Below are positions 7,314 through 18,905 of a DNA stretch of 64,000 nt, in pieces (within the stretch, counting starts at the first letter, position 1; each line of letters begins with the position of its first letter). The DNA is taken from assembly GCF_965641715.1 (NCBI RefSeq), contig NZ_OZ282453.1; one strand, given 5' to 3'. This stretch comes from Escherichia coli (lineage in GTDB: Bacteria; Pseudomonadota; Gammaproteobacteria; Enterobacterales; Enterobacteriaceae). Made by a program: the position numbers and the translations under genes. A model generated the notes under the pieces. That model worked only from the letters and a program-made list of their open reading frames with translations, had not been told where the DNA came from and did no database searches.

Positions 7314-8435
7314 ATGGTTGCTGAATTGACCGCATTACGCGATCAAATTGATGAAGTCGATAAAGCGCTGCTGAATTTATTAGCGAAGCGTCTGGAACTG
7401 GTTGCTGAAGTGGGAGAGGTGAAAAGCCGCTTTGGACTGCCTATTTATGTTCCGGAGCGAGAGGCATCTATGTTGGCCTCGCGTCGTGCAGAGGCGGAAG
7501 CTCTGGGTGTACCGCCAGATCTGATTGAGGATGTTTTGCGTCGGGTGATGCGTGAATCTTACTCCAGTGAAAACGACAAAGGATTTAAAACACTTTGTCC
7601 GTCACTGCGTCCGGTGGTTATCGTCGGCGGTGGCGGTCAGATGGGACGCCTGTTCGAGAAGATGCTGACACTATCGGGTTATCAGGTGCGGATTCTGGAG
7701 CAACATGACTGGGATCGAGCGGCTGATATTGTTGCCGATGCCGGAATGGTGATTGTTAGTGTGCCAATCCACGTTACTGAGCAAGTTATTGGCAAATTAC
7801 CGCCTTTACCGAAAGATTGTATTCTGGTTGATCTGGCATCAGTGAAAAATGGACCATTACAGGCCATGCTGGCGGCGCACGATGGCCCGGTACTGGGGTT
7901 ACACCCAATGTTCGGTCCGGACAGCGGTAGCCTGGCAAAGCAAGTTGTGGTCTGGTGTGATGGACGTAAACCGGAAGCATACCAATGGTTTCTGGAGCAA
8001 ATTCAGGTCTGGGGCGCTCGGTTGCATCGTATTAGCGCCGTCGAGCACGATCAGAATATGGCGTTTATTCAGGCACTGCGCCACTTTGCTACTTTTGCTT
8101 ACGGGCTGCACCTGGCAGAAGAAAATGTTCAGCTTGAGCAACTTCTGTCGCTCTCTTCGCCGATTTACCGCCTTGAGCTGGCGATGGTCGGGCGACTGTT
8201 CGCTCAGGATCCGCAGCTTTATGCCGACATTATTATGTCGTCAGAGCGTAATCTGGCGTTAATCAAACGTTACTATAAGCGTTTCGGCGAGGCGATTGAG
8301 TTGCTGGAGCAGGGCGATAAGCAGGCGTTTATTGACAGTTTCCGCAAGGTGGAGCACTGGTTCGGCGATTACGCACAGCGTTTTCAGAGTGAAAGCCGCG
8401 TGTTATTGCGTCAGGCGAATGACAATCGCCAGTAA
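7314..8435 (+). CDS. tyrA: Bifunctional chorismate mutase / prephenate dehydrogenase (T-protein)
   Basis: 373 aa with N-terminal chorismate mutase and NAD-binding GGGGQMG prephenate dehydrogenase domain; follows aroF. Confidence 0.95.
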
Positions 8436-8437
8436 TA

Positions 8438-8476
8438 ATCCAGTGCCGGATGATTCACATCATCCGGCACCTTTTC
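8438..8476. terminator. Bidirectional terminator between convergent tyrA and pheA
   Basis: Inverted repeat CCAGTGCCGGATGATTCACATCATCCGGCACCTTTT lying between the two convergent stop codons. Confidence 0.6.
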
Positions 8477-8477
8477 A

Positions 8478-9638
8478 TCAGGTTGGATCAACAGGCACTA
8501 CGTTCTCACTTGGGTAACAGCCCAATACCTTCATTGAACGGGTGATTTCCCCTAACTCTTTCAATGCTTTTTGCATTTCCGCTGATTCAAGATTGGCCTG
8601 AATATCCAGATAAAACATCTCTTCCCATGGATTACCGTGAATCGGGCGTGATTCCAGACGGGTCATAATCAGATTGTGGTTGCGCAGTACCAGCAACGCT
8701 TCAACCAGCGCACCGGCTTGTTGCCCGGTCGCCATTAACAACGTCGTTTTCGCCGGAACCTGATCAGACACGTTAATGGCTTTACGCGCCAACACCACAA
8801 ATCGGGTGAAGTTTTGTCGCTGATTCGCTTCAATCCGCTCCAGTACCTGCAAACCGTACAAAGTGCCGCCAGCTTCGCTTCCCAACGCAGCAACATGCGG
8901 TGATTTTGCCTGTGCAACCTTTTCCATTGCCGCAGACGTACTTTCGGTATATTCAATCTTCCAGTGCGGATAACGATTAAGGAATTTGCTGCATTGCTGG
9001 AATGGCTGCGGATGGCTGTAGACCGTATTGATGGTGGATAAATCAGTAGTGCCGGAGACCAACAAACAATGGTCGATAGTTAACGTCATCTCGCCAACAA
9101 TCGACAAGCTGGTATGTTGCAGCAGATCGTAAACGTCATTTATGGCACCGGAGCTGGTATTTTCAATCGGTACGACGGCATAGTCGGCCTGGCCGGTTTC
9201 CACCTGATTAAAAATATCGGCAAATTTGGCGCAGCCACTTTCAATGAATTGCTCAAAGTGACGGGCAGCATACTGGCGCGCCGCAAGATGGGAATAAGAA
9301 CCTTTGGGGCCGAGAAAAGCGATGCGTGCTGAGTGCGGATTAATTTTATTGAGATGTTGTTGGAGCAAAGCCTGCTGAGTTAATACGGAATCTTCAATGA
9401 TGAGCTGGAACAGGCGAGTAATGTAATGGGCGTCCAGATGGTGCGCTTTACCGAGCGTAATTAATCTTTCCAGTAAATCGCGTTCACGATCAATATCACG
9501 TACCGGGCGATGCGAGAGCAGTTTGGCTTTTCCCACCTCGACGGCCAGTTCGCGCCGCTCTGCGAGTAATGCTAATAATTTTTCATCCAGCGCGCTGATT
9601 TTCTCTCGCAGCGCCAGTAACGGGTTTTCCGATGTCAT
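8478..9638 (-). CDS. pheA: Bifunctional chorismate mutase / prephenate dehydratase (P-protein)
   Basis: 386 aa beginning [22 protein letters not shown]...; chorismate mutase, prephenate dehydratase and ACT domains. Confidence 0.95.
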
Positions 9639-9660
9639 AGTGTTGCCTTTTTGTTATCAA

Positions 9661-9690
9661 TAAAAAAGGCCCCCCGATTTGGGAGGCCTT
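9661..9690 (-). terminator. pheA attenuator (leader terminator)
   Basis: GC-rich hairpin plus T-run on the minus strand between pheL and pheA. Confidence 0.6.
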
Positions 9691-9736
9691 ATTGTTCGTC
9701 TTCGCATTCTGTTTCATACGACGAAACGCCTCCCAT

Positions 9737-9784
9737 TCAGGGGAAGGTAAAAAAGAATGCGAAGAAAAACGGTGTGTGTTTCAT
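9737..9784 (-). CDS. pheL: pheA operon leader peptide (Phe-rich)
   Basis: 15-codon ORF MKHTPFFFAFFFTFP with seven Phe codons, upstream of the attenuator hairpin; absent from the ORF track because it is short. Confidence 0.85.
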   Translation of the reverse strand: MKHTPFFFAFFFTFP

Positions 9785-9838
9785 GTTTGTTTCCTTAAGT
9801 GACTTTAGTACAGTACCCGTACTGTTTTCACGCTGTCA

Positions 9839-9865
9839 ACAAAAAACGCGCCCGAAGGTGCGTTG
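9839..9865. repeat. Prophage attL direct repeat (int-proximal)
   Basis: ACAAAAAACGCGCCCGAAGGTGCGTTG; matches 45803-45829 at 26 of 27 positions. Confidence 0.6.
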
Positions 9866-9951
9866 TAAAACCCACTGAATTCAATGTTTTCCCTTTGTTT
9901 TCAGTGGGTTTTGTTATTGGTGGGGGGTACTGATTACCCTATAAAACCCAC

Positions 9952-10974
9952 TTATGTGGATGAAATGTGGATGCCTCCTTTTAACGGATTAAGTGAAATT
10001 GCATCCTGGAGGAAATCAGGAGCGAGGTGCGCATAGGTCATAGTTTGCTGGATCGTGGCGTGCCCCATAATTCGCTGGAGCGTAAGTATATTTCCTCCAT
10101 TAATCATAAAGTGAGCTGCAAAGGTATGGCGTAGAACATGTACTGCCTGCCCTTTTGGTAGATCAGGTTTAACACTGCGAAGCACCTTGCGATATTCCTC
10201 ATAATTGACGTCAAACAAAAGGCCGGATTTCTTTGTTTTGATCTCGCTAACAACTTCATCAGAGACAGGAATAATTCGAACTTTTCCGTTTTTAGTTTTG
10301 TTAAACGTCACGCGGTTATTGATGATGTGTTCCGCGCGCAGATTTTTCGCTTCTCCCCATCTCGCACCAGTACTGAGACAAAGTAGCGTAATCCGCCGGG
10401 CATCACCGCTTACTGCATCCAGTAATTTGGCAATTTCTTCCGTGGTGAGATACGTCATTTCGGGTGATTTTCGTTTCAAAGAGGGGAGGGCGCGGAGCGG
10501 ATTTTCTCCGTGAAATTCCCCGGCATTTGCCAGGAGTGTAAACATTCCTCCGAGATCCGACTCATCACGCCGAACAGTAGACTCTTTTACTCCCAAAGAT
10601 AAACGGGAGCTTCGATAAGCGGCCATGAAACGAGCATTAATCTGGCTAACCCTTGGATCATTCATTTCTTTGATGATTTTTTTCAACCTGGTTAGAACGC
10701 CGTTAGCATATGGCTTATTGCGTCCACCCAATTCCCACCATAACGGAAGCAGATCTGAGAGATGACGTTGCTCTGTTGGCTTTTCAAGCCATTCCTTATC
10801 GTGCATGTGGCTGAGAACATAACGCTCAAAGGCCACTGCATCTGCCTTTTTCTTAAAAATCCGCTGAATCCGACGTCCACTTCGGCCACGCGGTCTAACA
10901 TCCACTTTATACCGTCCACCATCGAGTGCTTTAATTGCCATTGGCAAGCCCTCCGGTGAAACGAGGAAAGACAT
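9952..10974 (-). CDS. int: Phage tyrosine integrase
   Basis: 340 aa with C-terminal tyrosine recombinase catalytic region (HxLRHT...Y); immediately inside attL. Confidence 0.9.
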   Translation of the reverse strand: MSFLVSPEGLPMAIKALDGGRYKVDVRPRGRSGRRIQRIFKKKADAVAFERYVLSHMHDKEWLEKPTEQRHLSDLLPLWWELGGRNKPYANGVLTRLKKIIKEMNDPRVSQINARFMAAYRSSRLSLGVKESTVRRDESDLGGMFTLLANAGEFHGENPLRALPSLKRKSPEMTYLTTEEIAKLLDAVSGDARRITLLCLSTGARWGEAKNLRAEHIINNRVTFNKTKNGKVRIIPVSDEVVSEIKTKKSGLLFDVNYEEYRKVLRSVKPDLPKGQAVHVLRHTFAAHFMINGGNILTLQRIMGHATIQQTMTYAHLAPDFLQDAISLNPLKGGIHISST

Positions 10975-11007: not shown

Positions 11008-11325
11008 TTAACCAATTTTCCTTTCGGATGGGGGTAAATCCGTTGGTTCTTGCCCATAGTGTGCGAGAGCCGGAGCTATCTGCCCGGATTCAGGCGCAAT
11101 TTTTCCAGTCATAAACCACAACGCATATTTCTCAAATCTGGGGTTGTTTAGTATTTGCTCAATTACTTCAGCATTAGGGATAGTTTTACCGCTTTCATAT
11201 CTCCACAGAGCATCACGGTTTAAACCAAGCATTTTTGCTGTATCCGGGAGGCTAGTAAGTCTCTCGCTTTCACGCATGATTTTTATGCGCTCTCCAATAG
11301 TCATACGCATGTTGCAATTCTCCAA
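11008..11325 (-). CDS. P2 C-type immunity repressor
   Basis: About 100 aa with HTH and C-terminal WFMTGKIAPESGQIAPALAHYGQ, resembling P2 repressor C as recalled; divergent from the early operon. Confidence 0.8.
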   Translation of the reverse strand: MENCNMRMTIGERIKIMRESERLTSLPDTAKMLGLNRDALWRYESGKTIPNAEVIEQILNNPRFEKYALWFMTGKIAPESGQIAPALAHYGQEPTDLPPSERKIG

Positions 11326-13490: not shown

Positions 13491-13753
13491 CCATTCTGGA
13501 CTACATCGCTACTCATCCGGGGTGTAGCGGCGGAGAGATCGCCGCAGCACTGAATACTCCAACCACAGCCATTAATGCTGAGTTACGCCAACTTTGGCGC
13601 GGCGGCTTAGTCATCAGAACAAACCGCAGCACAGGTGGTCGCGCTCGCAAAACTGGAGGCCAGGCTTCTTACCACGTAAACCCGATGCCGTTCGGGTGTA
13701 GCAATCCACTTACTCACATGTTTAACCAGCTACTGAAGGAAGCCAGAGCATGA
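13487..13753 (+). CDS. Putative winged-helix DNA-binding protein
   Basis: 88 aa; ...GCSGGEIAAALNTPTTAINAELRQLWRGGLV... resembles a winged HTH; translationally coupled to its neighbours. Confidence 0.5.
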   Translation: MTILDYIATHPGCSGGEIAAALNTPTTAINAELRQLWRGGLVIRTNRSTGGRARKTGGQASYHVNPMPFGCSNPLTHMFNQLLKEARA

Positions 13754-14049
13754 GCACCATCAACCACCAGAAGCTACGCGAACTGGCATTTGCCCTGCAA
13801 CGAATGGCAACGCCTCAAAAATTACTGGCATTTCGCGCAATGCTCTCGCCGTCTGCTGTGCTGGCATTGCTGGATGAGCTGGAGCACGCCAGAACCACGG
13901 CTCCTGCCATTCGCCTGACGCTCCATCATGAAATCGCTGATTTCTGCGCGACATTGGAGGCGCCAGGCGAACCGGAAACGCCGGAAGCAATACAGCAAGA
14001 GCCGCTGCAACGCATTGACAAGGTTTTTGATTTTTTTCTGAACCAGTAA
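13750..14049 (+). CDS. Hypothetical early protein
   Basis: 99-aa ORF overlapping the previous stop by 4 nt. Confidence 0.5.
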   Translation: MSTINHQKLRELAFALQRMATPQKLLAFRAMLSPSAVLALLDELEHARTTAPAIRLTLHHEIADFCATLEAPGEPETPEAIQQEPLQRIDKVFDFFLNQ

Positions 14050-14371
14050 GAAACCAGAGCATGCACACACAAAAAAACCGCTTGCCATGCCGCAATCAGT
14101 CAGGTTACATTTTCGCTGCACCTCATAAAACGGGTGCCGGGTTTCGCAGCCTGCTGACAACCAAAGCGCACAACCGCGCCAGCGGTTTTTTTGTGCGTAC
14201 TGTATTGCCACGTTTTTTTCGCGTCAGAATTATGGCGGGGCGTACGGGGCCGACTTCGGTCGGGCCGGGTTCTTTGGTTGCCGGTACTGCGAACCCCGTA
14301 CGTCTCGCCACCCACAGTTTCGCAGCTCTGGATGGTGAGTTTTCAAAACTTACAACCAAAGAGGCCACACC

Positions 14372-14602
14372 ATGGCAAACCGCAAACAGCACCGCGCTAT
14401 CGCGGAGCGTCGTCACATCCAGACTGAAATCAACCGCAGACTTTCCCGCGCATTCCGCGTCGCTAAAATCATGCACATCAATATGCTGCATGAGCGTAGC
14501 TGCGAACTTTCAAACCTCTACTCATCCGCTGTTTTCAGCTATCTGGCGGATGATCTGCGCGAGCTTCAACAGCTCATCCAGCAGCAAAACAAACTCCATT
14601 AA
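14372..14602 (+). CDS. Hypothetical early protein
   Basis: 76-aa basic ORF after a ~320-bp non-coding stretch. Confidence 0.45.
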   Translation: MANRKQHRAIAERRHIQTEINRRLSRAFRVAKIMHINMLHERSCELSNLYSSAVFSYLADDLRELQQLIQQQNKLH

Positions 14603-14674
14603 TTCCTGTTCCGGGCCTTTCCTGCACCTTGCGGCGGGAGGCCTTCGCACATCTGTAACAAGAGGATTGCCGCA

Positions 14675-15040
14675 ATGATTCTCGCCAACGACTTTCTTGA
14701 ATACCTGCTCAACACAGAGCGTGATCTTGCCGCTCGCGTACGTGATCGTTATGACATGTATCTGAAATCCCTGCCTGTACCGCAGCTCGCTGACGGAAAG
14801 ATTGTTATTGATGGTCGCTACATGATTGACAGCCACGAGGGAAATTACAGGCTTTACCGCATTGAAGGTGGCACCCCGTCCGTTATTGGCATTTACCAGC
14901 GCCCATCCTCTGCAATCGTCGATGTGATTGCCGACAGCATCCGCATCACACATCGCCATGCCGACACAGAAGACACCGTGCTGGAAATTCAGCGGCTGGC
15001 TGCCGTCTGCCGCGACACCCTGAATGGCATGACGAAGTAA
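14675..15040 (+). CDS. Hypothetical early protein
   Basis: 121-aa ORF immediately upstream of gene A. Confidence 0.5.
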   Translation: MILANDFLEYLLNTERDLAARVRDRYDMYLKSLPVPQLADGKIVIDGRYMIDSHEGNYRLYRIEGGTPSVIGIYQRPSSAIVDVIADSIRITHRHADTEDTVLEIQRLAAVCRDTLNGMTK

Positions 15041-15046
15041 ATCACT

Positions 15047-17869
15047 ATGACGGCAGAGTACATCAGGGACTGGCAACAACCGCGCCACGCAGTGGGACGT
15101 GAAGGAACGGGGATCCCCGTTCCTGAATCCGCGCTTTCCTCCTGGCTGGATGCCTACCGGGCAGAGAACGAGCGCCGCCAGGAAATGGCTGATGCGGCGT
15201 TCTCCGCCACGCCGCTGGGCAACCTGATTAATAAAAGCCTGGATGCACAGGAAAAACAGGACAAAACCATCACACTGGCAGGAGACGCCAGAAAACAGGT
15301 ACGCGGTGCGGTGGATGAAGCCATGGCCTCGCTGCGCCTGCTGCCGTCCTATCTGCGCGATCCGCTTATTCGCCACCTCTCCTTCCTGCGCAAAAAACAG
15401 GAAGCCGATCGCCGGAAAGGCAAAAAGAGCTGGCAGGCTGAACGCTACGCGCGCGGAACCCTGCGCAAAATATTCGAACGTCTGGACCGCACCGACCACC
15501 GCTGGCTGACACCGGGTTATCGCTCCCTTGCCGGACGCGAACGCCTGGATGATTTGCTTTACCTGCCGCAGCTCAACAAGCACCAGATACAGACGCTGGC
15601 CACCATGACGGCGGCGATGTTCAGCAGCACCTTCGAAAAACTCTGCGATGGCTTTGGCGCGACTGATGGCGAGCTGACCATGGATGTAACGCTGAAGGCG
15701 TATCAGATGCTGGCCCGCATGGCGTTACACCTGCACGCCATGCCTCCGCATTATGATGCACTGACAACAGACAAAGACCGGAGGAACGAACCGGACACGG
15801 AGCTGCTGCCGGGCGCAATCCTTCGCCTGACCTGTGCGGAATGGTGGAAACGCAAACTGTGGCTGTTACGTTGCGAGTGGCGGGAAGAACAACTCCGCGC
15901 CGCCTGTCTGGTTTCCAGAAAAACATCGCCCTATCTGAGCCAGGACGCGTTAAGCGAGTTTCGCGCACAGCGCGAGAAAACACGCGATTTCCTGAAAAGT
16001 TTCATGCTGGAAAACGAAGACGGGTTCACGATTGATCTCGAGACGGTGTATTACGCGGGAGTAAGTAACCCGGTTCATCGTAAGGCAGAAATGATGGCCA
16101 CCATGAAGGGGCTGGAACTTCTGGCCGAAGCCCGTGGCGACAAAGCGGTGTTTCTGACTGTCACCTGCCCGTCAAAATACCACGCCACAACAGAGAACGG
16201 TCATCCGAATCCCAAATGGAACGGGGCCACCATGCGCGACTCCAGCGATTACCTGGTTAACACGTTTTTTGCGGCGGTCCGCAAGAAACTGAACCGCGAC
16301 GGCCTGCGCTGGTATGGCATCCGCACGGTGGAGCCTCACCATGACGGCACCGTGCACTGGCATATGATGGTCTTTGCTCATCCGGAAGAAATCGACACCA
16401 TTGTGTCCCACACCCGCGATATTGCCATTCAGGAAGATCGTCACGAGCTGGGTGATGATATTACCCCACGCTTTAAGGCGGAGTACGTCGACGGCTCAAA
16501 AGGCACACCGACCAGCTACATCGCCACCTACATCGGGAAAAACCTGGACAGCCGTGCCGTGGATGGCATCGACCCGAAAACGGGCAAGCCACGCGTTGAC
16601 CACGAAACCGGAAAATCAATGGCCGAGAGCGTGGAACGCGCCATCGGCTGGGCGCGCCTTCATCGGGTCCGCCAGTTCCAGTTCTTTGGCATCCCCTCCC
16701 GTCAGGTGTGGCGTGAACTGCGCCGCCTTGCCAGCCAGATGGCTCGCAACCCGGAAGGACCGCAACGGCTGAAGGATGACGCAATGGACGCGGTTCTTGC
16801 TGCCGCTGATGCCGGATGTTTTGCCACCTACATAGAGAAACAGGGCGGCGTACTTGTTCCACGCAAGGACTACCTGATTCGCACCGCCTACGACCTCGCA
16901 GATGAGCTGAACGATTACGGTGAACAGAGCGTACAGATTTACGGGATCTGGTCACCGCTCATCGGGGAGTCTTCCCGCGTATGCACGCATCCGGACAACT
17001 GGAAGCTGGTAAGACGCAAACCGGAAGCGGAAGACAGCGCCCGCGAAAATGGTTTTGACCTTCAGGGCGGCCCTGCCGCCCCTTGGACTCGTGGCAATAA
17101 CTGTCCCCGTGTACAGGAAACAGGCAACAGCGGGACAGAACAGTCGAAAGAACGGCCAGCACCGTGGCCGCAGCTTCCTGACGGCGTTGACGTGAACGAA
17201 TGGATGCGCTCACTGAAACGGCACGAACGCCGGGCGCTGATGCGTTCGCTTCGTGACAAACAGGCAAAAAACAGCAGTGATGAAATGCAGAGCTGGACAC
17301 AGAGCCGCAAACAGCCACGGCCTTTGCCTGATAACCACGAATTACTCGCTAAAGAATGGCGGGAGTCTGCTGAATCTCTCGGCCTGCATATCGGTGAACA
17401 ACAGATGCAGCACCTGTTACGGGGCGGCAGTCTGTACGTTGACGGCAGCATCATTGCACCGCAGGGATTTGAAATTGTACGCAAACCGGATACCCGCCCG
17501 GACAGCCGAATCACGCAGCTCTGGCAGCGCCTGAGCCGTAATCATGGCGTAAGCAGCACGGAGATCCGCCATAACCCGGTCGCCAGCTATCTGGCACAGC
17601 TGGGGGCATCAGACCCTGAAGCCGCCGCACGCCTGGCATCCACACTTCAGCAGGACCAGAACACCATGAAAACACCCGTTACCGTGCTTTCTGACATGCT
17701 GCGCGCCATCCGCGACGCAGAGCACGCACAGAGAATCAGTGAAACCACTGAACGCGCCAGCCGCAAAGCAGACCTGCTGCGGGGTGGCCTGACCAGTGGA
17801 AACAAAAAACAGACAGAAACGGGATTCACAAATCCCATAAATGAGCAAAAAACGTGCCGCGATATATGA
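15047..17869 (+). CDS. Rolling-circle replication initiator (P2 gpA-like endonuclease)
   Basis: 940 aa with a HUH-type motif (VHWHMMVF); position after the early genes as in P2. Longer than P2 A as I recall it. Confidence 0.85.
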   Translation: MTAEYIRDWQQPRHAVGREGTGIPVPESALSSWLDAYRAENERRQEMADAAFSATPLGNLINKSLDAQEKQDKTITLAGDARKQVRGAVDEAMASLRLLPSYLRDPLIRHLSFLRKKQEADRRKGKKSWQAERYARGTLRKIFERLDRTDHRWLTPGYRSLAGRERLDDLLYLPQLNKHQIQTLATMTAAMFSSTFEKLCDGFGATDGELTMDVTLKAYQMLARMALHLHAMPPHYDALTTDKDRRNEPDTELLPGAILRLTCAEWWKRKLWLLRCEWREEQLRAACLVSRKTSPYLSQDALSEFRAQREKTRDFLKSFMLENEDGFTIDLETVYYAGVSNPVHRKAEMMATMKGLELLAEARGDKAVFLTVTCPSKYHATTENGHPNPKWNGATMRDSSDYLVNTFFAAVRKKLNRDGLRWYGIRTVEPHHDGTVHWHMMVFAHPEEIDTIVSHTRDIAIQEDRHELGDDITPRFKAEYVDGSKGTPTSYIATYIGKNLDSRAVDGIDPKTGKPRVDHETGKSMAESVERAIGWARLHRVRQFQFFGIPSRQVWRELRRLASQMARNPEGPQRLKDDAMDAVLAAADAGCFATYIEKQGGVLVPRKDYLIRTAYDLADELNDYGEQSVQIYGIWSPLIGESSRVCTHPDNWKLVRRKPEAEDSARENGFDLQGGPAAPWTRGNNCPRVQETGNSGTEQSKERPAPWPQLPDGVDVNEWMRSLKRHERRALMRSLRDKQAKNSSDEMQSWTQSRKQPRPLPDNHELLAKEWRESAESLGLHIGEQQMQHLLRGGSLYVDGSIIAPQGFEIVRKPDTRPDSRITQLWQRLSRNHGVSSTEIRHNPVASYLAQLGASDPEAAARLASTLQQDQNTMKTPVTVLSDMLRAIRDAEHAQRISETTERASRKADLLRGGLTSGNKKQTETGFTNPINEQKTCRDI

Positions 17870-17945: not shown

Positions 17946-18905
17946 ATGAAAATTTGTATCGACGACGGCTCCACCAACATCAAGCTGGCATGGACTGAGA
18001 ACGGCGAACGCCGCAACGCCATCAGCCCGAACAGCTTCAAGTCGGAATGGTCTGCGCCGTTCGGTGGCTCGCAGCCCGCGAACTACATGCTTGATGGCGT
18101 GCGCTATGGTTTTGATCCGGTCAGCGATCGCTTTGTCCAGACGACCGACACGCAATACCAGTACAGCGATGTGAATGTCATTGCCATTCATCACGCGCTG
18201 GTCAAATCAGGCATCACGCCACAGGAGGTGGATGTGGTTGTCACCCTGCCATTGAGCGAGTATTTCGACACAAACGCACAGCCGGACATGGCCAACATCA
18301 GCCGCAAAAAAGCGAACGTTATGCGCCCGGTGGAGTACCAGAACGGCGAAACATTCACTATCCGTAACGTACGGGTTATGCCTGAATCCATTCCGGCTGG
18401 CTTTAAAGCACTGGCTGACATGAGTCCGCTTGAATCCCTGCTGATTGTGGATTTGGGCGGAACCACACTGGATGTGGCAAAGGTTCAGGGGCAACTGGCA
18501 GGTATCAGCCAGGTGTTTTGCGATCCACACGTAGGCGTTTCCCTGATGGCCGATGCCGTACTGTCGGTGATGGCCACTAACGGTATGCGTATCAGTCACC
18601 ACATCGCCAATACCATTATCGAACATCGCCATGATGAAGCCTGGTTGCGCCAGCACATCCACAATGACGCGCATTACGCCAGCCTGATGGCGGTTATTCG
18701 TGAAAAGGAAGAAACACTGAAACAACGCGTGATCCGCGCGCTGGCGGTTTTTTCGGGTTACGGGCGGGTGATGGTTGTCGGTGGCGGGGCGGAGATTGTG
18801 GCACCCGCTATCCGCGAAGCCTGCGGAGTTAATGCGACTTTCATCGCGGACGGGGTGCCACAGTTTGCTCTGGTTAATGGGCTGTACGCAATGGACAAGG
18901 AGTAA
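17946..18905 (+). CDS. ParM/StbA-like actin-type segregation ATPase
   Basis: N-terminus MKICIDDGSTNIKLAW... and later ...YSDVNVIAIHHAL... closely resemble plasmid R1 ParM (MLVFIDDGSTNIKLQW...YSDVNVVAVHHAL) as recalled. Confidence 0.85.
   Translation: MKICIDDGSTNIKLAWTENGERRNAISPNSFKSEWSAPFGGSQPANYMLDGVRYGFDPVSDRFVQTTDTQYQYSDVNVIAIHHALVKSGITPQEVDVVVTLPLSEYFDTNAQPDMANISRKKANVMRPVEYQNGETFTIRNVRVMPESIPAGFKALADMSPLESLLIVDLGGTTLDVAKVQGQLAGISQVFCDPHVGVSLMADAVLSVMATNGMRISHHIANTIIEHRHDEAWLRQHIHNDAHYASLMAVIREKEETLKQRVIRALAVFSGYGRVMVVGGGAEIVAPAIREACGVNATFIADGVPQFALVNGLYAMDKE

What the first reader, a model, noticed from the sequence alone, without database searches (positions are those of the whole stretch)
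14050..14371. ~320-bp non-coding gap in the early operon with repeats and nested hairpins
Early genes here are otherwise separated by 0-80 bp. This gap has no convincing ORF (the overlapping track ORFs are low-complexity). It contains a twice-repeated motif GTTTCGCAGC...ACAACCAAAG (about 14143-14180 and 14312-14370), a hairpin with a T-run (CGCACAA...CCGCGCCAGCGG...TTGTGCG, about 14170-14200) and a further GC-rich stem-loop (about 14240-14262). It could be an internal terminator or antiterminator, a small RNA, or a protein-binding site such as an accessory replication element.
Basis: seen in the sequence. Interest (0 to 1): 0.45.

Follow-up and report, generated by a model that had tools for sequence, protein, structure and literature searches.

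The report
Phage C4/IsrK antisense-RNA immunity cassette
The "non-coding gap" is a known phage regulatory cassette: two small RNA genes (an IsrK-like RNA and a C4/CI-type antisense RNA) plus their target sites, placed to keep an anti-repressor gene and the replication gene silent; it is a clear example of a known kind, not a new one.

Summary
The repeat, the T-run hairpin and the GC-rich stem-loop are all present, a few bases off the stated coordinates.

Together they form a known cassette. Rfam matches at full length and above gathering score:
- isrK (RF01394), 14118-14192.
- C4 antisense RNA (RF01695), 14228-14315.

Both are complementary to the C4 junction a' (14287-14293) and loop b' (14272-14280). 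b2 overlaps the Shine-Dalgarno sequence of the next gene, a 76-aa homologue of the satellite phage P4 epsilon anti-repressor. An ORF of unknown function and replication gene A follow.

The host is a P88-like (P2-family) prophage with a P2 C-type repressor. Order and sequence are collinear with the P4 immunity region (seqA - CI RNA - seqC - epsilon) and with lambdoid cassettes placed before Rha anti-repressors.

In 83 loci, variation is concentrated in the six pairing patches and covaries three ways: 98-100% of cells pair, against 27-52% in slid controls. At least 15 specificity alleles exist.

Likely function, inferred and not tested here: C4 RNA blocks translation of the epsilon-like gene, with polarity on gene A, and IsrK acts as a competing decoy.

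Already known kind; low to moderate interest.

The parts
14071..14111 (+). Predicted promoter of the cassette: -35 TTGCCA (14082-14087), 18-nt spacer, -10 TACATT (14106-14111), preceded by an A7 tract (14071-14077) in a UP-element-like position. The predicted start is near G14118.
   Evidence: Promoter scan, 9 of 12 matches. The hexamers are invariant in 41 aligned homologues. It aligns with the promoter region upstream of P4 seqA and of the lambdoid cassettes. G14118 is position 1 of the isrK model. Promoter activity was not tested.
14118..14192 (+). IsrK-like / P4 seqA-like small RNA. Hairpin 1 is 14118-14137. Hairpin 2 is 14138-14153 and carries a1 in its loop. b1 lies in a single-stranded stretch. 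The intrinsic terminator is 14172-14187, followed by the U-run.
   Evidence: Rfam RF01394, 65.9 bits against a gathering score of 50, model positions 1-77. Terminator scan.
14143..14149 (+). a1 target site (UUCGCAG), complementary to a'.
   Evidence: All cells of the a1:a' helix pair, and 4 of its 7 pairs show changes on both sides.
14158..14166 (+). b1 target site (CAACCAAAG), complementary to b'.
   Evidence: All cells of the b1:b' helix pair, and 7 of its 9 pairs show changes on both sides.
14228..14315 (+). C4 / P4-CI-type antisense RNA. A 17-bp closing stem (14233-14249 with 14294-14310) encloses hairpin 1 (14250-14263) and hairpin 2 (14264-14285). A discriminator base plus CCA (14311-14314) follows the stem, as at a tRNA 3' end.
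   Evidence: Rfam RF01695, 87.1 bits against a gathering score of 45, model positions 1-87. The MFE fold is identical to the family consensus, -49.8 kcal/mol, z = -3.9. The stems pair in 100% of cells and show some compensatory changes.
14272..14280 (+). b' recognition loop of C4 (CUUUGGUUG).
   Evidence: Lies in the loop of hairpin 2. Covaries with both b1 and b2.
14287..14293 (+). a' recognition segment of C4 (CUGCGAA), in the single-stranded 3' junction.
   Evidence: Covaries with both a1 and a2.
14319..14325 (+). a2 target site (UUCGCAG).
   Evidence: All cells pair, and 4 of 7 pairs show changes on both sides.
14335..14353 (+). Small hairpin (GUGAGUUUU / AAAACUUAC) between a2 and b2.
   Evidence: Inverted repeat I10. 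The same arrangement is seen in the lambdoid versions.
14353..14364 (+). b2 target site (CAACCAAAG, 14353-14361; pairing extends to 14362). It overlaps the Shine-Dalgarno sequence AAGAGG (14359-14364) of the epsilon-like gene, whose ATG is at 14372.
   Evidence: 97% of cells pair, and 6 of 9 pairs show changes on both sides.
14372..14602 (+). 76-aa homologue of the P4 epsilon helper-derepression (anti-repressor) protein. This is the gene directly controlled by the cassette.
   Evidence: Pfam PF25738 Derepression, 29.5 bits against a cut-off of 27. P4 epsilon itself scores 170 bits on that model. BLASTP against P4 epsilon gives 29% identity, E = 1e-8. All 82 related loci carry the RNA module directly upstream of this gene.
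14675..17869 (+). Downstream genes expected to be affected by polarity: orf121 (14675-15040, unknown function) and the replication endonuclease gene A (15047-17869).
   Evidence: Pfam Phage_GPA, 438 bits. No promoter-like site was found between the cassette and position 15100.
11008..11325 (-). P2 C-type immunity repressor of this prophage, the presumed target of the epsilon-like protein.
   Evidence: 52% identical to P2 C, E = 5e-34.

Best explanation
The gap is an RNA-based secondary immunity cassette of the P1 c4 / P4 CI type, embedded in the early operon of a P88-like (P2-family) prophage.

Shown here:
- It contains an IsrK/seqA-like RNA gene with its own predicted promoter and terminator.
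- It contains a C4/CI-like RNA gene.
- It contains two sets of target sites, a1/b1 inside IsrK and a2/b2 over the ribosome-binding site of the next gene.
- That next gene is a homologue of the P4 epsilon anti-repressor, and replication gene A follows.
- The C4 loop b' and junction a' have co-evolved with both target sets.

Inferred from P1/P7, P4 and Gifsy-1:
- Transcripts from the cassette promoter mostly stop at the IsrK terminator.
- Read-through transcripts are processed (RNase P at the tRNA-like stem) into a stable C4 RNA of about 77-80 nt.
- C4 pairs through a'/b' with a2/b2 on read-through or early-operon transcripts and occludes the Shine-Dalgarno sequence of the epsilon-like gene.
- Uncoupling translation from transcription then causes premature termination, so the anti-repressor, orf121 and gene A stay off in the lysogen and in a superinfecting phage of the same specificity.
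- IsrK carries a1/b1 and competes for C4, in cis in the precursor and in trans as the short RNA. The IsrK:C4 ratio therefore sets the threshold for epsilon-like expression, which would then inactivate the P2 C-type repressor.
For: - Family matches: Rfam hits are above gathering score and cover the full models. C4 scores 87.1 bits, E = 8e-16 for the whole window; isrK scores 65.9 bits, E = 7e-12.
- Fold: C4 alone folds into the family consensus, z = -3.9.
- Complementarity: exact matches of 9-10 nt (b') and 7 nt (a') to both target sets. The composite motif occurs only at these three places in 64 kb, with 0 expected.
- Conservation: all 82 related loci carry the module directly upstream of the epsilon-like gene.
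- Covariation: in 38 distinct sequences, variation is concentrated in the six pairing patches. Loops with a1/b1 pair in 100% of 608 cells, and 11 of 16 pairs change on both sides. Loops with a2/b2 pair in 98.4% of cells, and 10 of 16 pairs change on both sides. Slid controls give 27-52%, and 0 of 500 shuffles reach the observed score.
- Specificity: there are 15 a' x b' allele combinations. Cognate pairing averages 15.7 of 16 positions; non-cognate pairing averages 10.6.
- Collinearity: the order promoter - isrK - terminator - C4 - a2 - hairpin - b2 - SD - ATG matches P4 and five lambdoid phages.
- Neighbouring genes: the downstream gene is a P4 epsilon homologue, and the prophage repressor is P2 C-like.
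- Literature: PMC4825925 describes IsrK as a structural homologue of P4 seqA and a processed downstream RNA (STnc1160) as CI-like. It also summarises the P4 mechanism.
Against: - No transcript, processing or phenotype data exist for this phage. Promoter activity, RNase P cleavage, the translation block and Rho-dependent polarity are all inferred by homology.
- In Gifsy-1 the experimentally shown net effect of IsrK in trans is activation of the downstream anti-repressor through an upstream ORF (PMC4825925). The sign and dominance of the two RNAs here are therefore uncertain.
- The epsilon-like protein is only 29% identical to P4 epsilon and barely exceeds the Pfam cut-off (29.5 against 27 bits). 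Its target is untested.
- Each transcript carries two target sets per C4, so repression requires C4 to accumulate. That is assumed, not shown.
Confidence: 0.8

Rival explanations
1. IsrK-type positive control dominates, as in Gifsy-1. The read-through transcript folds in cis, with a1/b1 paired to a'/b', into a translationally silent form. Short IsrK-like RNA acting in trans opens it and switches on translation of the downstream anti-repressor, possibly through an upstream ORF that starts at AUG 14232 inside C4. Processed C4 would play little or no repressor role.
For: - The 258-nt MFE fold pairs the a1/b1 region with the a'/b' region in cis. This resembles 'structure A' of PMC4825925.
- The AUG at 14232-14234 is invariant. 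The ORF from it is open in 78 of 82 loci.
- This mechanism was shown experimentally for the homologous Gifsy-1 locus.
Against: - a2/b2 covary with a'/b' as tightly as a1/b1 do. The Gifsy-1 model as published does not require that; the C4/CI repression model does.
- Here the ORF from AUG 14232 does not end near the epsilon-like start. It runs through the whole gene in another frame.
- That ORF is broken in L045, L059 and L047.
- The two models are not mutually exclusive.
Confidence: 0.3
2. The gap encodes a protein of the Pfam Phage_ASH family (ORF 14061-14678, or from ATG 14232).
For: - The translation scores 29.6 bits against a gathering score of 26 for PF10554, and matches several PHROGs annotated as transcriptional regulators.
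- That frame has no stop across the module in 38 of 41 aligned sequences.
- GenBank record PV468777 marks the stretch 'similar to ash family protein'.
- The ORF ends in an ATGA overlap with orf121.
Against: - Frameshifts: the frame is shifted over 173 nt by a +1/-1 indel pair sitting exactly at a1 and a2 in L045 and L059. A -2 deletion in the T-run shifts it in L042, and stops appear in L040 and L047.
- Codon positions: variable columns outside the pairing patches show no third-position bias (11/17/18).
- Pattern of variation: it is three-way RNA complementarity that includes G-U pairs.
- Overlap: the ORF covers the whole epsilon-like gene out of frame, and its product is low-complexity and rich in Ser, Thr and Ala.
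- What the Pfam domain covers: it coincides with the RNA genes in P4's historical 'cI' ORF and in N-terminal extensions of annotated Rha anti-repressors. By established knowledge, summarised in PMC4825925, the P4 immunity factor is the CI RNA.
- RefSeq annotation leaves the gap unannotated.
Confidence: 0.04
3. The gap is only a cis-acting intrinsic terminator or attenuator that partitions the early operon, and the repeats are incidental or protein-binding (for example replication accessory) sites.
For: - A good terminator-like hairpin with a T7 run lies at 14172-14192.
- The gap sits upstream of replication gene A.
Against: - This does not explain the full-length C4 match, the exact three-way complementarity, or the covariation.
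- Protein-binding direct repeats would not covary with a complementary copy on the same strand, and would not tolerate G-U equivalents.
- The same cassette precedes unrelated replication modules: lambda O-type in the lambdoid phages and the alpha primase in P4.
Confidence: 0.03

Closest known systems
Satellite phage P4 immunity region (PLE - seqA - CI RNA/seqB - seqC - ... - epsilon - orf151 - alpha)
   Same: - Both Rfam models hit P4 in the same order and on the same strand: isrK on the seqA region and C4 on the CI RNA.
- The promoter, terminator, C4 fold and SD-overlapping downstream target align base for base.
- An epsilon-family gene lies downstream, followed by an ORF of unknown function and the replication gene.
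- P4-like elements show the same reassorting allele diversity: 17 combinations in 56 loci.
   Different: - The host element is a full P2-type helper-class phage, not a satellite.
- The replication gene is gpA (a rolling-circle nickase), not the alpha primase-helicase.
- The isrK-to-C4 spacer is 35 nt here against 107 nt in P4.
- The epsilon-like gene starts directly after b2. In P4 another ORF intervenes.
- orf121 is not similar to P4 orf151.
- No P88-like allele pair is identical to a P4-like one.
P1/P7 immI: c4 antisense RNA - icd - ant
   Same: - Same RNA family (RF01695 was defined on c4).
- a'/b' recognition elements pair with a1/b1 upstream and with a2/b2 over the ribosome-binding site of the next gene.
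- An anti-repressor is the regulated output.
- Specificity is set by a few bases, as in P1/P7 heteroimmunity (PMC12197685 and established knowledge).
   Different: - The regulated protein is epsilon-type, not Ant.
- There is no icd-like gene.
- The cassette lies inside the early lytic operon, upstream of the replication gene.
- At least 15 specificities were found here, against the two classical ones.
Gifsy-1 isrK - orf45/STnc1160 - anrP locus of Salmonella (PMC4825925)
   Same: - An IsrK RNA with its own promoter and a leaky terminator.
- A C4-like processed RNA downstream.
- An anti-repressor as the output.
- Cis pairing between the IsrK middle part and the C4 region is predicted here too.
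   Different: - The anti-repressor family differs.
- The ORF starting in C4 does not terminate at the start of the downstream gene.
- No AntQ-type antiterminator is involved.
- The phage family differs: lambdoid there, P2-like here.
Lambdoid and Stx-phage cassettes upstream of Rha-type anti-repressors (mEp460, Stx2a_1447, 1720a-02 and others)
   Same: - About 70% nucleotide identity across exactly the module.
- Same position between early regulatory genes and replication genes.
- Some a' alleles are shared: CTGCGAA in Stx2_EH2201.
   Different: - The downstream gene is Rha-type.
- In the database records the RNA module is annotated as the N-terminus of that protein.

Membership tests
C4 antisense RNA (Rfam RF01695; P1/P7 c4, P4 CI) | Match to the family covariance model at or above the gathering score, over the full model length | tested here: met
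   87.1 bits against 45, model positions 1-87 of 87, E = 8e-16 for the 64-kb window
C4 antisense RNA (Rfam RF01695; P1/P7 c4, P4 CI) | A long closing stem enclosing two hairpins, with b' in the loop of the second hairpin and a' in the 3' single-stranded junction | tested here: met
   The MFE fold equals the consensus. The stems pair in 100% of cells across 38 sequences, and 4 pairs show compensatory changes.
C4 antisense RNA (Rfam RF01695; P1/P7 c4, P4 CI) | a'/b' complementary to a downstream a2/b2 that overlaps the ribosome-binding site of the next gene | tested here: met
   b2 (14353-14362) overlaps the SD AAGAGG (14359-14364). 98.4% of cells pair and 10 of 16 pairs covary.
C4 antisense RNA (Rfam RF01695; P1/P7 c4, P4 CI) | a'/b' also complementary to an upstream a1/b1 | tested here: met
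   100% of 608 cells pair and 11 of 16 pairs covary. The c4-a1b1 model RF03163 itself is sub-threshold here (19.6 against 46.7 bits).
C4 antisense RNA (Rfam RF01695; P1/P7 c4, P4 CI) | The regulated downstream gene encodes an anti-repressor | tested here: inconclusive
   The gene is homologous to P4 epsilon (Pfam PF25738 29.5 against 27 bits; BLASTP E = 1e-8). Anti-repressor activity was not tested.
C4 antisense RNA (Rfam RF01695; P1/P7 c4, P4 CI) | Mature RNA released from a longer transcript by RNase P, acting in trans to confer immunity | not testable with these tools
   Only the tRNA-like stem followed by N-CCA (14311-14314) is visible in the sequence.
IsrK / P4 seqA RNA (Rfam RF01394) | Match to the covariance model above the gathering score | tested here: met
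   65.9 bits against 50, model positions 1-77 of 77
IsrK / P4 seqA RNA (Rfam RF01394) | Own promoter, and a Rho-independent terminator that allows read-through into the C4 region | tested here: inconclusive
   A consensus promoter (9 of 12 matches) places the start at model position 1, and a terminator hairpin plus U7 is present. Both are invariant in the homologues. Transcript ends were not measured.
IsrK / P4 seqA RNA (Rfam RF01394) | Hfq binding | not testable with these tools
   -
P4-type immunity cassette | Collinear order: promoter - seqA - CI - seqC - epsilon - replication gene | tested here: met
   The replication gene is analogous (gpA), not homologous to alpha.
P4-type immunity cassette | CI-dependent premature transcription termination upstream of the replication genes | not testable with these tools
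   No promoter-like site lies between the cassette and gene A, which is compatible with polarity. Termination itself was not assessed.
Pfam Phage_ASH protein family (PF10554) | HMM score above the gathering threshold | tested here: met
   29.6 bits against 26
Pfam Phage_ASH protein family (PF10554) | A conserved, intact reading frame with protein-like substitution patterns | tested here: not met
   Frameshifting indels occur at a1/a2 and in the T-run, and stops occur in some homologues. There is no third-position bias. Variation follows RNA pairing.

The most novel reading that the evidence does not exclude
In P88-like P2-family phages, the P4-type RNA cassette may be the gate of a self-encoded epsilon-type anti-repressor. 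That would make it the induction and immunity switch that plain P2 lacks.

Its a' and b' elements may form a freely reassorting, diversifying heteroimmunity code: at least 5 a' and 12 b' alleles, in 15 observed combinations among 83 nearly identical loci. The same code system is used by P4-like satellites and lambdoid phages of the same hosts. Helpers, satellites and unrelated prophages could therefore silence, or escape, each other's anti-repressor and replication genes through shared or near-cognate alleles.
Probability: 0.35. Interest if true: 0.5.

Novelty: already known. Interest (0 to 1): 0.27.

Why it matters
For annotation, a 320-bp "empty" gap present in about 1,400 of 5,426 complete E. 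coli genomes is in fact two RNA genes plus their targets. RefSeq leaves it blank. Other records call it an 'ash family' pseudogene or the N-terminus of an anti-repressor.

For biology, it places an RNA-gated epsilon-type anti-repressor and the replication gene of a P2-family phage under the control logic known from P1, P4 and Gifsy-1. The set of at least 15 naturally orthogonal RNA-RNA specificities on an almost invariant scaffold documents diversifying selection on immunity. It could also serve as a parts list for orthogonal antisense regulators.

None of this changes the verdict that the element belongs to an already described kind.

Tried and rejected
1. Antiterminator idea. A 21-nt, 90% inverted repeat (14065-14085 with 14178-14198) could in principle let early-operon transcripts read through the IsrK terminator. 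I rejected this as the primary reading. It would sequester only the 3' arm and U-tract. Its upstream arm is an A-tract immediately 5' of the -35, in a UP-element-like position. It is invariant, so there is no covariation to test, and it is absent from the lambdoid and P4 versions.

2. Second promoter-like site at 14205-14233. It would start transcription inside C4, and its -35 varies among homologues. It is not considered functional.

3. Other targets of this C4 in the window. None was found: the composite motif and the b site occur only at the three cassette positions.

4. Homology of orf121 to P4 orf151: none.

5. Direct BLASTP of the 205-aa ORF against the P4 'cI' ORF: not significant, although both hit PF10554 on different profile segments.

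6. P2 itself: no Rfam hit in its early region. The cassette is therefore not a general P2-family feature.

7. NCBIfam: uninformative for the neighbouring small ORFs.

8. Literature. Searches for the primary P4 CI RNA papers and for any description of this cassette in P88-like or P2-like phages found nothing beyond PMC4825925, PMC2864571, PMC7313666 and PMC12197685. Older P1 and P4 papers are not in the library.

9. The GC-rich hairpin after the epsilon-like gene (14613-14644) folds no better than shuffled sequence (z = -0.4).

10. A first codon-position control on the epsilon-like gene was contaminated by spurious regex hits. It was redone with an identity filter and shows only a weak third-position bias, so this test carries little weight.

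Full report
**1. The observation**

The stretch 14050-14371 lies between the stop of a 99-aa Ead/Ea22-like ORF (13750-14049) and the ATG of a 76-aa ORF (14372-14602). It sits in a + strand operon that continues into a 940-aa gpA-type replication endonuclease (15047-17869; Pfam Phage_GPA 438 bits).

GTTTCGCAGC is exact at 14141-14150 and 14317-14326. CTGACAACCAAAG (14154-14166) matches CTTACAACCAAAG (14349-14361).
- The T-run hairpin is AACCGC-GCCA-GCGGTT (14172-14187) followed by a T7 run. It is flagged as terminator-like.
- The GC-rich stem-loop belongs to a larger 88-nt structure.
- The composite motif TTCGCAG-N(4-34)-CAACCAAAG occurs three times in the 64-kb window: twice on the + strand, and once as its reverse complement between them. 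None is expected in 100 shuffles.

**2. What it is**

A scan of the whole window against Rfam gives two full-length hits above gathering score inside the gap:
- isrK (RF01394) at 14118-14192, 65.9 bits against 50.
- C4 antisense RNA (RF01695) at 14228-14315, 87.1 bits against 45.

There is also a sub-threshold hit to the 'a1,b1 targets of C4' model.

C4 alone folds into the family consensus (-49.8 kcal/mol, z = -3.9). That fold is a 17-bp closing stem, a UUCG-capped hairpin, and a second hairpin whose 12-nt loop contains CUUUGGUUG (b', 14272-14280). An unpaired junction containing CUGCGAA (a', 14287-14293) follows.

- a1 (14143-14149) lies in the loop of the second IsrK hairpin, and b1 (14158-14166) lies in the single-stranded stretch before the IsrK terminator.
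- a2 (14319-14325) and b2 (14353-14361) lie downstream of C4, separated by a small hairpin.
- b2 pairing (extendable to 14362) overlaps the Shine-Dalgarno sequence AAGAGG (14359-14364) of the 76-aa gene.

A promoter-like site (TTGCCA-18-TACATT, 14082-14111), preceded by an A7 tract, places a start at about G14118. That base is position 1 of the isrK model.

**3. Context**

The element is a P88-like prophage (Xuanwuvirus, Peduoviridae). Close matches occur in phages P88, P884B11 and vB_EcoM-569R5, and in about 1,400 of 5,426 complete E. coli genomes.

- Its repressor (11008-11325, - strand) is 52% identical to P2 C.
- P2 itself has no such RNA module.
- P88 was recovered after mitomycin C treatment of its lysogen (PMC5285337).
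- The 76-aa protein belongs to Pfam 'Derepression' (PF25738). That model is the family of P4 epsilon, which scores 170 bits over its full length. The protein aligns to P4 epsilon at 29% identity, E = 1e-8.

In P4 the same two Rfam models hit in the same order: isrK on the seqA region and C4 on the CI RNA. They lie upstream of epsilon, orf151 and the alpha replication gene.

A multiple alignment of the window, P4 and five lambdoid or Stx phages shows the whole cassette to be collinear: promoter, two IsrK hairpins, terminator, C4, a2, hairpin, b2-SD-ATG. In the lambdoid phages it precedes a Rha-type anti-repressor and the O/P replication genes.

**4. Comparative test**

A scan of viral contigs with the 76-aa protein returned 80 loci. 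Together with two GenBank phages, all 82 carry the RNA module immediately upstream, at 86-100% identity. A mosaic junction at about 14068 separates it from variable upstream genes.

Forty-one sequences (38 distinct) were aligned (A1). Promoter hexamers, IsrK hairpins, terminator and C4 stems are nearly invariant. Variation is concentrated in the six patches a1, b1, b', a', a2 and b2. Counting named pairs gives:

| Pairing | Cells paired | Pairs changed on both sides | Slid controls | Shuffles reaching the score |
|---|---|---|---|---|
| C4 loops with a1/b1 | 100% of 608 | 11 of 16 | 27-52% | 0 of 500 |
| C4 loops with a2/b2 | 98.4% | 10 of 16 | 35-49% | 0 of 500 |

- A few G-U pairs occur. These are compatible only with pairing in + strand RNA.
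- C4's own helices pair in 100% of cells, with a handful of compensatory changes.
- There are at least 15 a' x b' combinations among 83 loci, and a and b alleles reassort.
- Cognate loop-target pairing averages 15.7 of 16 positions, against 10.6 for non-cognate pairs.
- P4-like satellites show the same behaviour: 17 combinations in 56 loci. No pair is identical to a P88-like one, although individual a' alleles are shared across phage families.
- In four cases, two P88-like loci come from one genome. Three of those pairs differ in b'. The sample is too small to conclude anything.

**5. The ORF question**

The gap is spanned by a 205-aa ORF (14061-14678). Its translation exceeds the Pfam Phage_ASH threshold (29.6 against 26 bits) and hits PHROGs annotated as transcriptional regulators.

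The same Pfam domain covers the C4 region in P4's historical 'cI' ORF. It also covers the N-terminal extensions of annotated Rha anti-repressors in lambdoid phages, ending about 10 residues before the Rha domain.

Evidence against a protein:
- A +1/-1 indel pair located exactly at a1 and a2 shifts the frame for 173 nt in L045 and L059.
- A -2 deletion in the T-run shifts it in L042, and stops appear in L040 and L047.
- Variable columns outside the patches show no third-position bias.
- The variation pattern is RNA complementarity.

I conclude that the 'Ash' signal is the translated RNA cassette. One residual oddity remains. The ORF from the invariant AUG 14232 inside C4 stays open in 78 of 82 loci and ends in an ATGA overlap with orf121. 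Gifsy-1 orf45, which starts at the equivalent place, is reported to be translated (PMC4825925).

**6. Mechanism**

Shown here:
- The two RNA genes, the predicted promoter and terminator, and the target geometry over the SD.
- The identities of the downstream genes.
- Evolutionary proof that a'/b' pair with both target sets.

Inferred from P1/P7 c4 (established knowledge; PMC12197685), from P4 CI (as summarised in PMC4825925), and from Gifsy-1 IsrK:
- The cassette promoter is active in the lysogen, and most transcripts end as IsrK.
- Read-through RNA is cut at the tRNA-like stem (stem + N + CCA, 14311-14314) to give stable C4.
- C4 binds a2/b2, blocks initiation at the epsilon-like gene and causes premature termination. 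The anti-repressor, orf121 and gene A therefore remain silent, and a superinfecting phage of the same specificity is also blocked.
- IsrK, through a1/b1, competes for C4. It does so in cis in the precursor, as the 258-nt MFE fold predicts, or in trans. This sets the switch threshold.
- When it is made, the epsilon-like protein would inactivate the P2 C-type repressor.

The main rival is that activation by IsrK in trans dominates, as measured in Gifsy-1. The equally tight covariation of a2/b2 argues that C4-type repression operates, but the two mechanisms can coexist.

**7. Comparison and verdict**

The element passes every sequence-level membership criterion of the C4 and isrK families and of the P4-type cassette. 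The biochemical criteria (RNase P processing, Hfq binding, termination, immunity phenotype) cannot be tested here.

Three features are specific to this instance:
- The host is a helper-class P2-family phage.
- The epsilon-like gene starts directly after b2.
- The replication gene downstream is gpA.

I found no paper describing the cassette in P88-like phages. RefSeq leaves the gap unannotated. The kind is nevertheless well known, and standard Rfam annotation recognises this instance.

Novelty: already known. Interest: low to moderate. The allele diversity and the probable spurious Pfam family are useful by-products.

Noticed in passing
window 14061-14678; L083 (P4) 8168-8584; L085 1155-2306; L087 1455-2318; L088 1458-2120: Pfam PF10554 (Phage_ASH) and several PHROG 'transcriptional regulator' families match the translation of the isrK-C4-a2/b2 RNA cassette. 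In lambdoid phage records the cassette is annotated as the N-terminus of Rha anti-repressors. The family looks like a translated-RNA artefact, and those start codons look mis-called.
   Followed up: partly
window 14232-14678: An ORF starting at the invariant AUG inside the C4 5' stem runs out of frame through the whole epsilon-like gene. It ends in an ATGA overlap with the orf121 start (14675). It is open in 78 of 82 related loci. This recalls the translated orf45 of Gifsy-1, but its significance is unknown.
   Followed up: partly
window 14065-14085 and 14178-14198: A 21-nt, 90% complementary inverted repeat links the A-tract just upstream of the cassette promoter with the 3' half and T-run of the IsrK terminator. 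It is invariant in P88-like loci and absent from the lambdoid and P4 versions. It is probably a UP-element-like A-tract, though a structural role is not excluded.
   Followed up: partly
L090-L146 (P4-like satellites), L085-L089 (lambdoid phages): The a'/b' specificity elements are equally hypervariable and reassorting in P4-like satellites: 17 combinations in 56 loci. Individual a' alleles are shared between phage families (CTGCGAA in Stx2_EH2201; ATTTCCAC in mEp460 and in P4-likes).
   Followed up: partly
L013/L037, L022/L041, L024/L079, L073/L075: These are pairs of P88-like loci from the same genome. Three pairs carry different b' alleles with the same a'. The fourth pair is identical and may be one prophage assembled twice.
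   Followed up: partly
window about 14068; L001-L082: Homology among P88-like phages breaks at about 14050-14068, just upstream of the cassette promoter. Upstream accessory genes differ between phages (for example an SPFH-domain gene in P88). This is a mosaic junction.
   Followed up: partly
window 17946-18905: A ParM/StbA-type plasmid segregation gene (Pfam StbA_N 274 bits) lies directly after replication gene A in this integrated P2-family prophage.
   Followed up: no
window 14613-14644: A GC-rich hairpin without a T-run lies between the epsilon-like gene and orf121. It folds no better than shuffled sequence (z = -0.4).
   Followed up: partly
window 9660-10974: The prophage integrase gene (9952-10974, - strand) lies next to the pheL leader (Rfam Phe_leader, 9660-9785) and pheA. 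The other end of the prophage lies before ryfD (49055) and an rrn operon (52189 onward). The attachment sites were not mapped.
   Followed up: no
L147 (NZ_CP028772.1, 1304108-1304429) and other RefSeq E. coli genomes: RefSeq annotation leaves the cassette completely unannotated. The epsilon homologue is called 'hypothetical protein' in most genomes and 'derepression protein' in some.
   Followed up: yes
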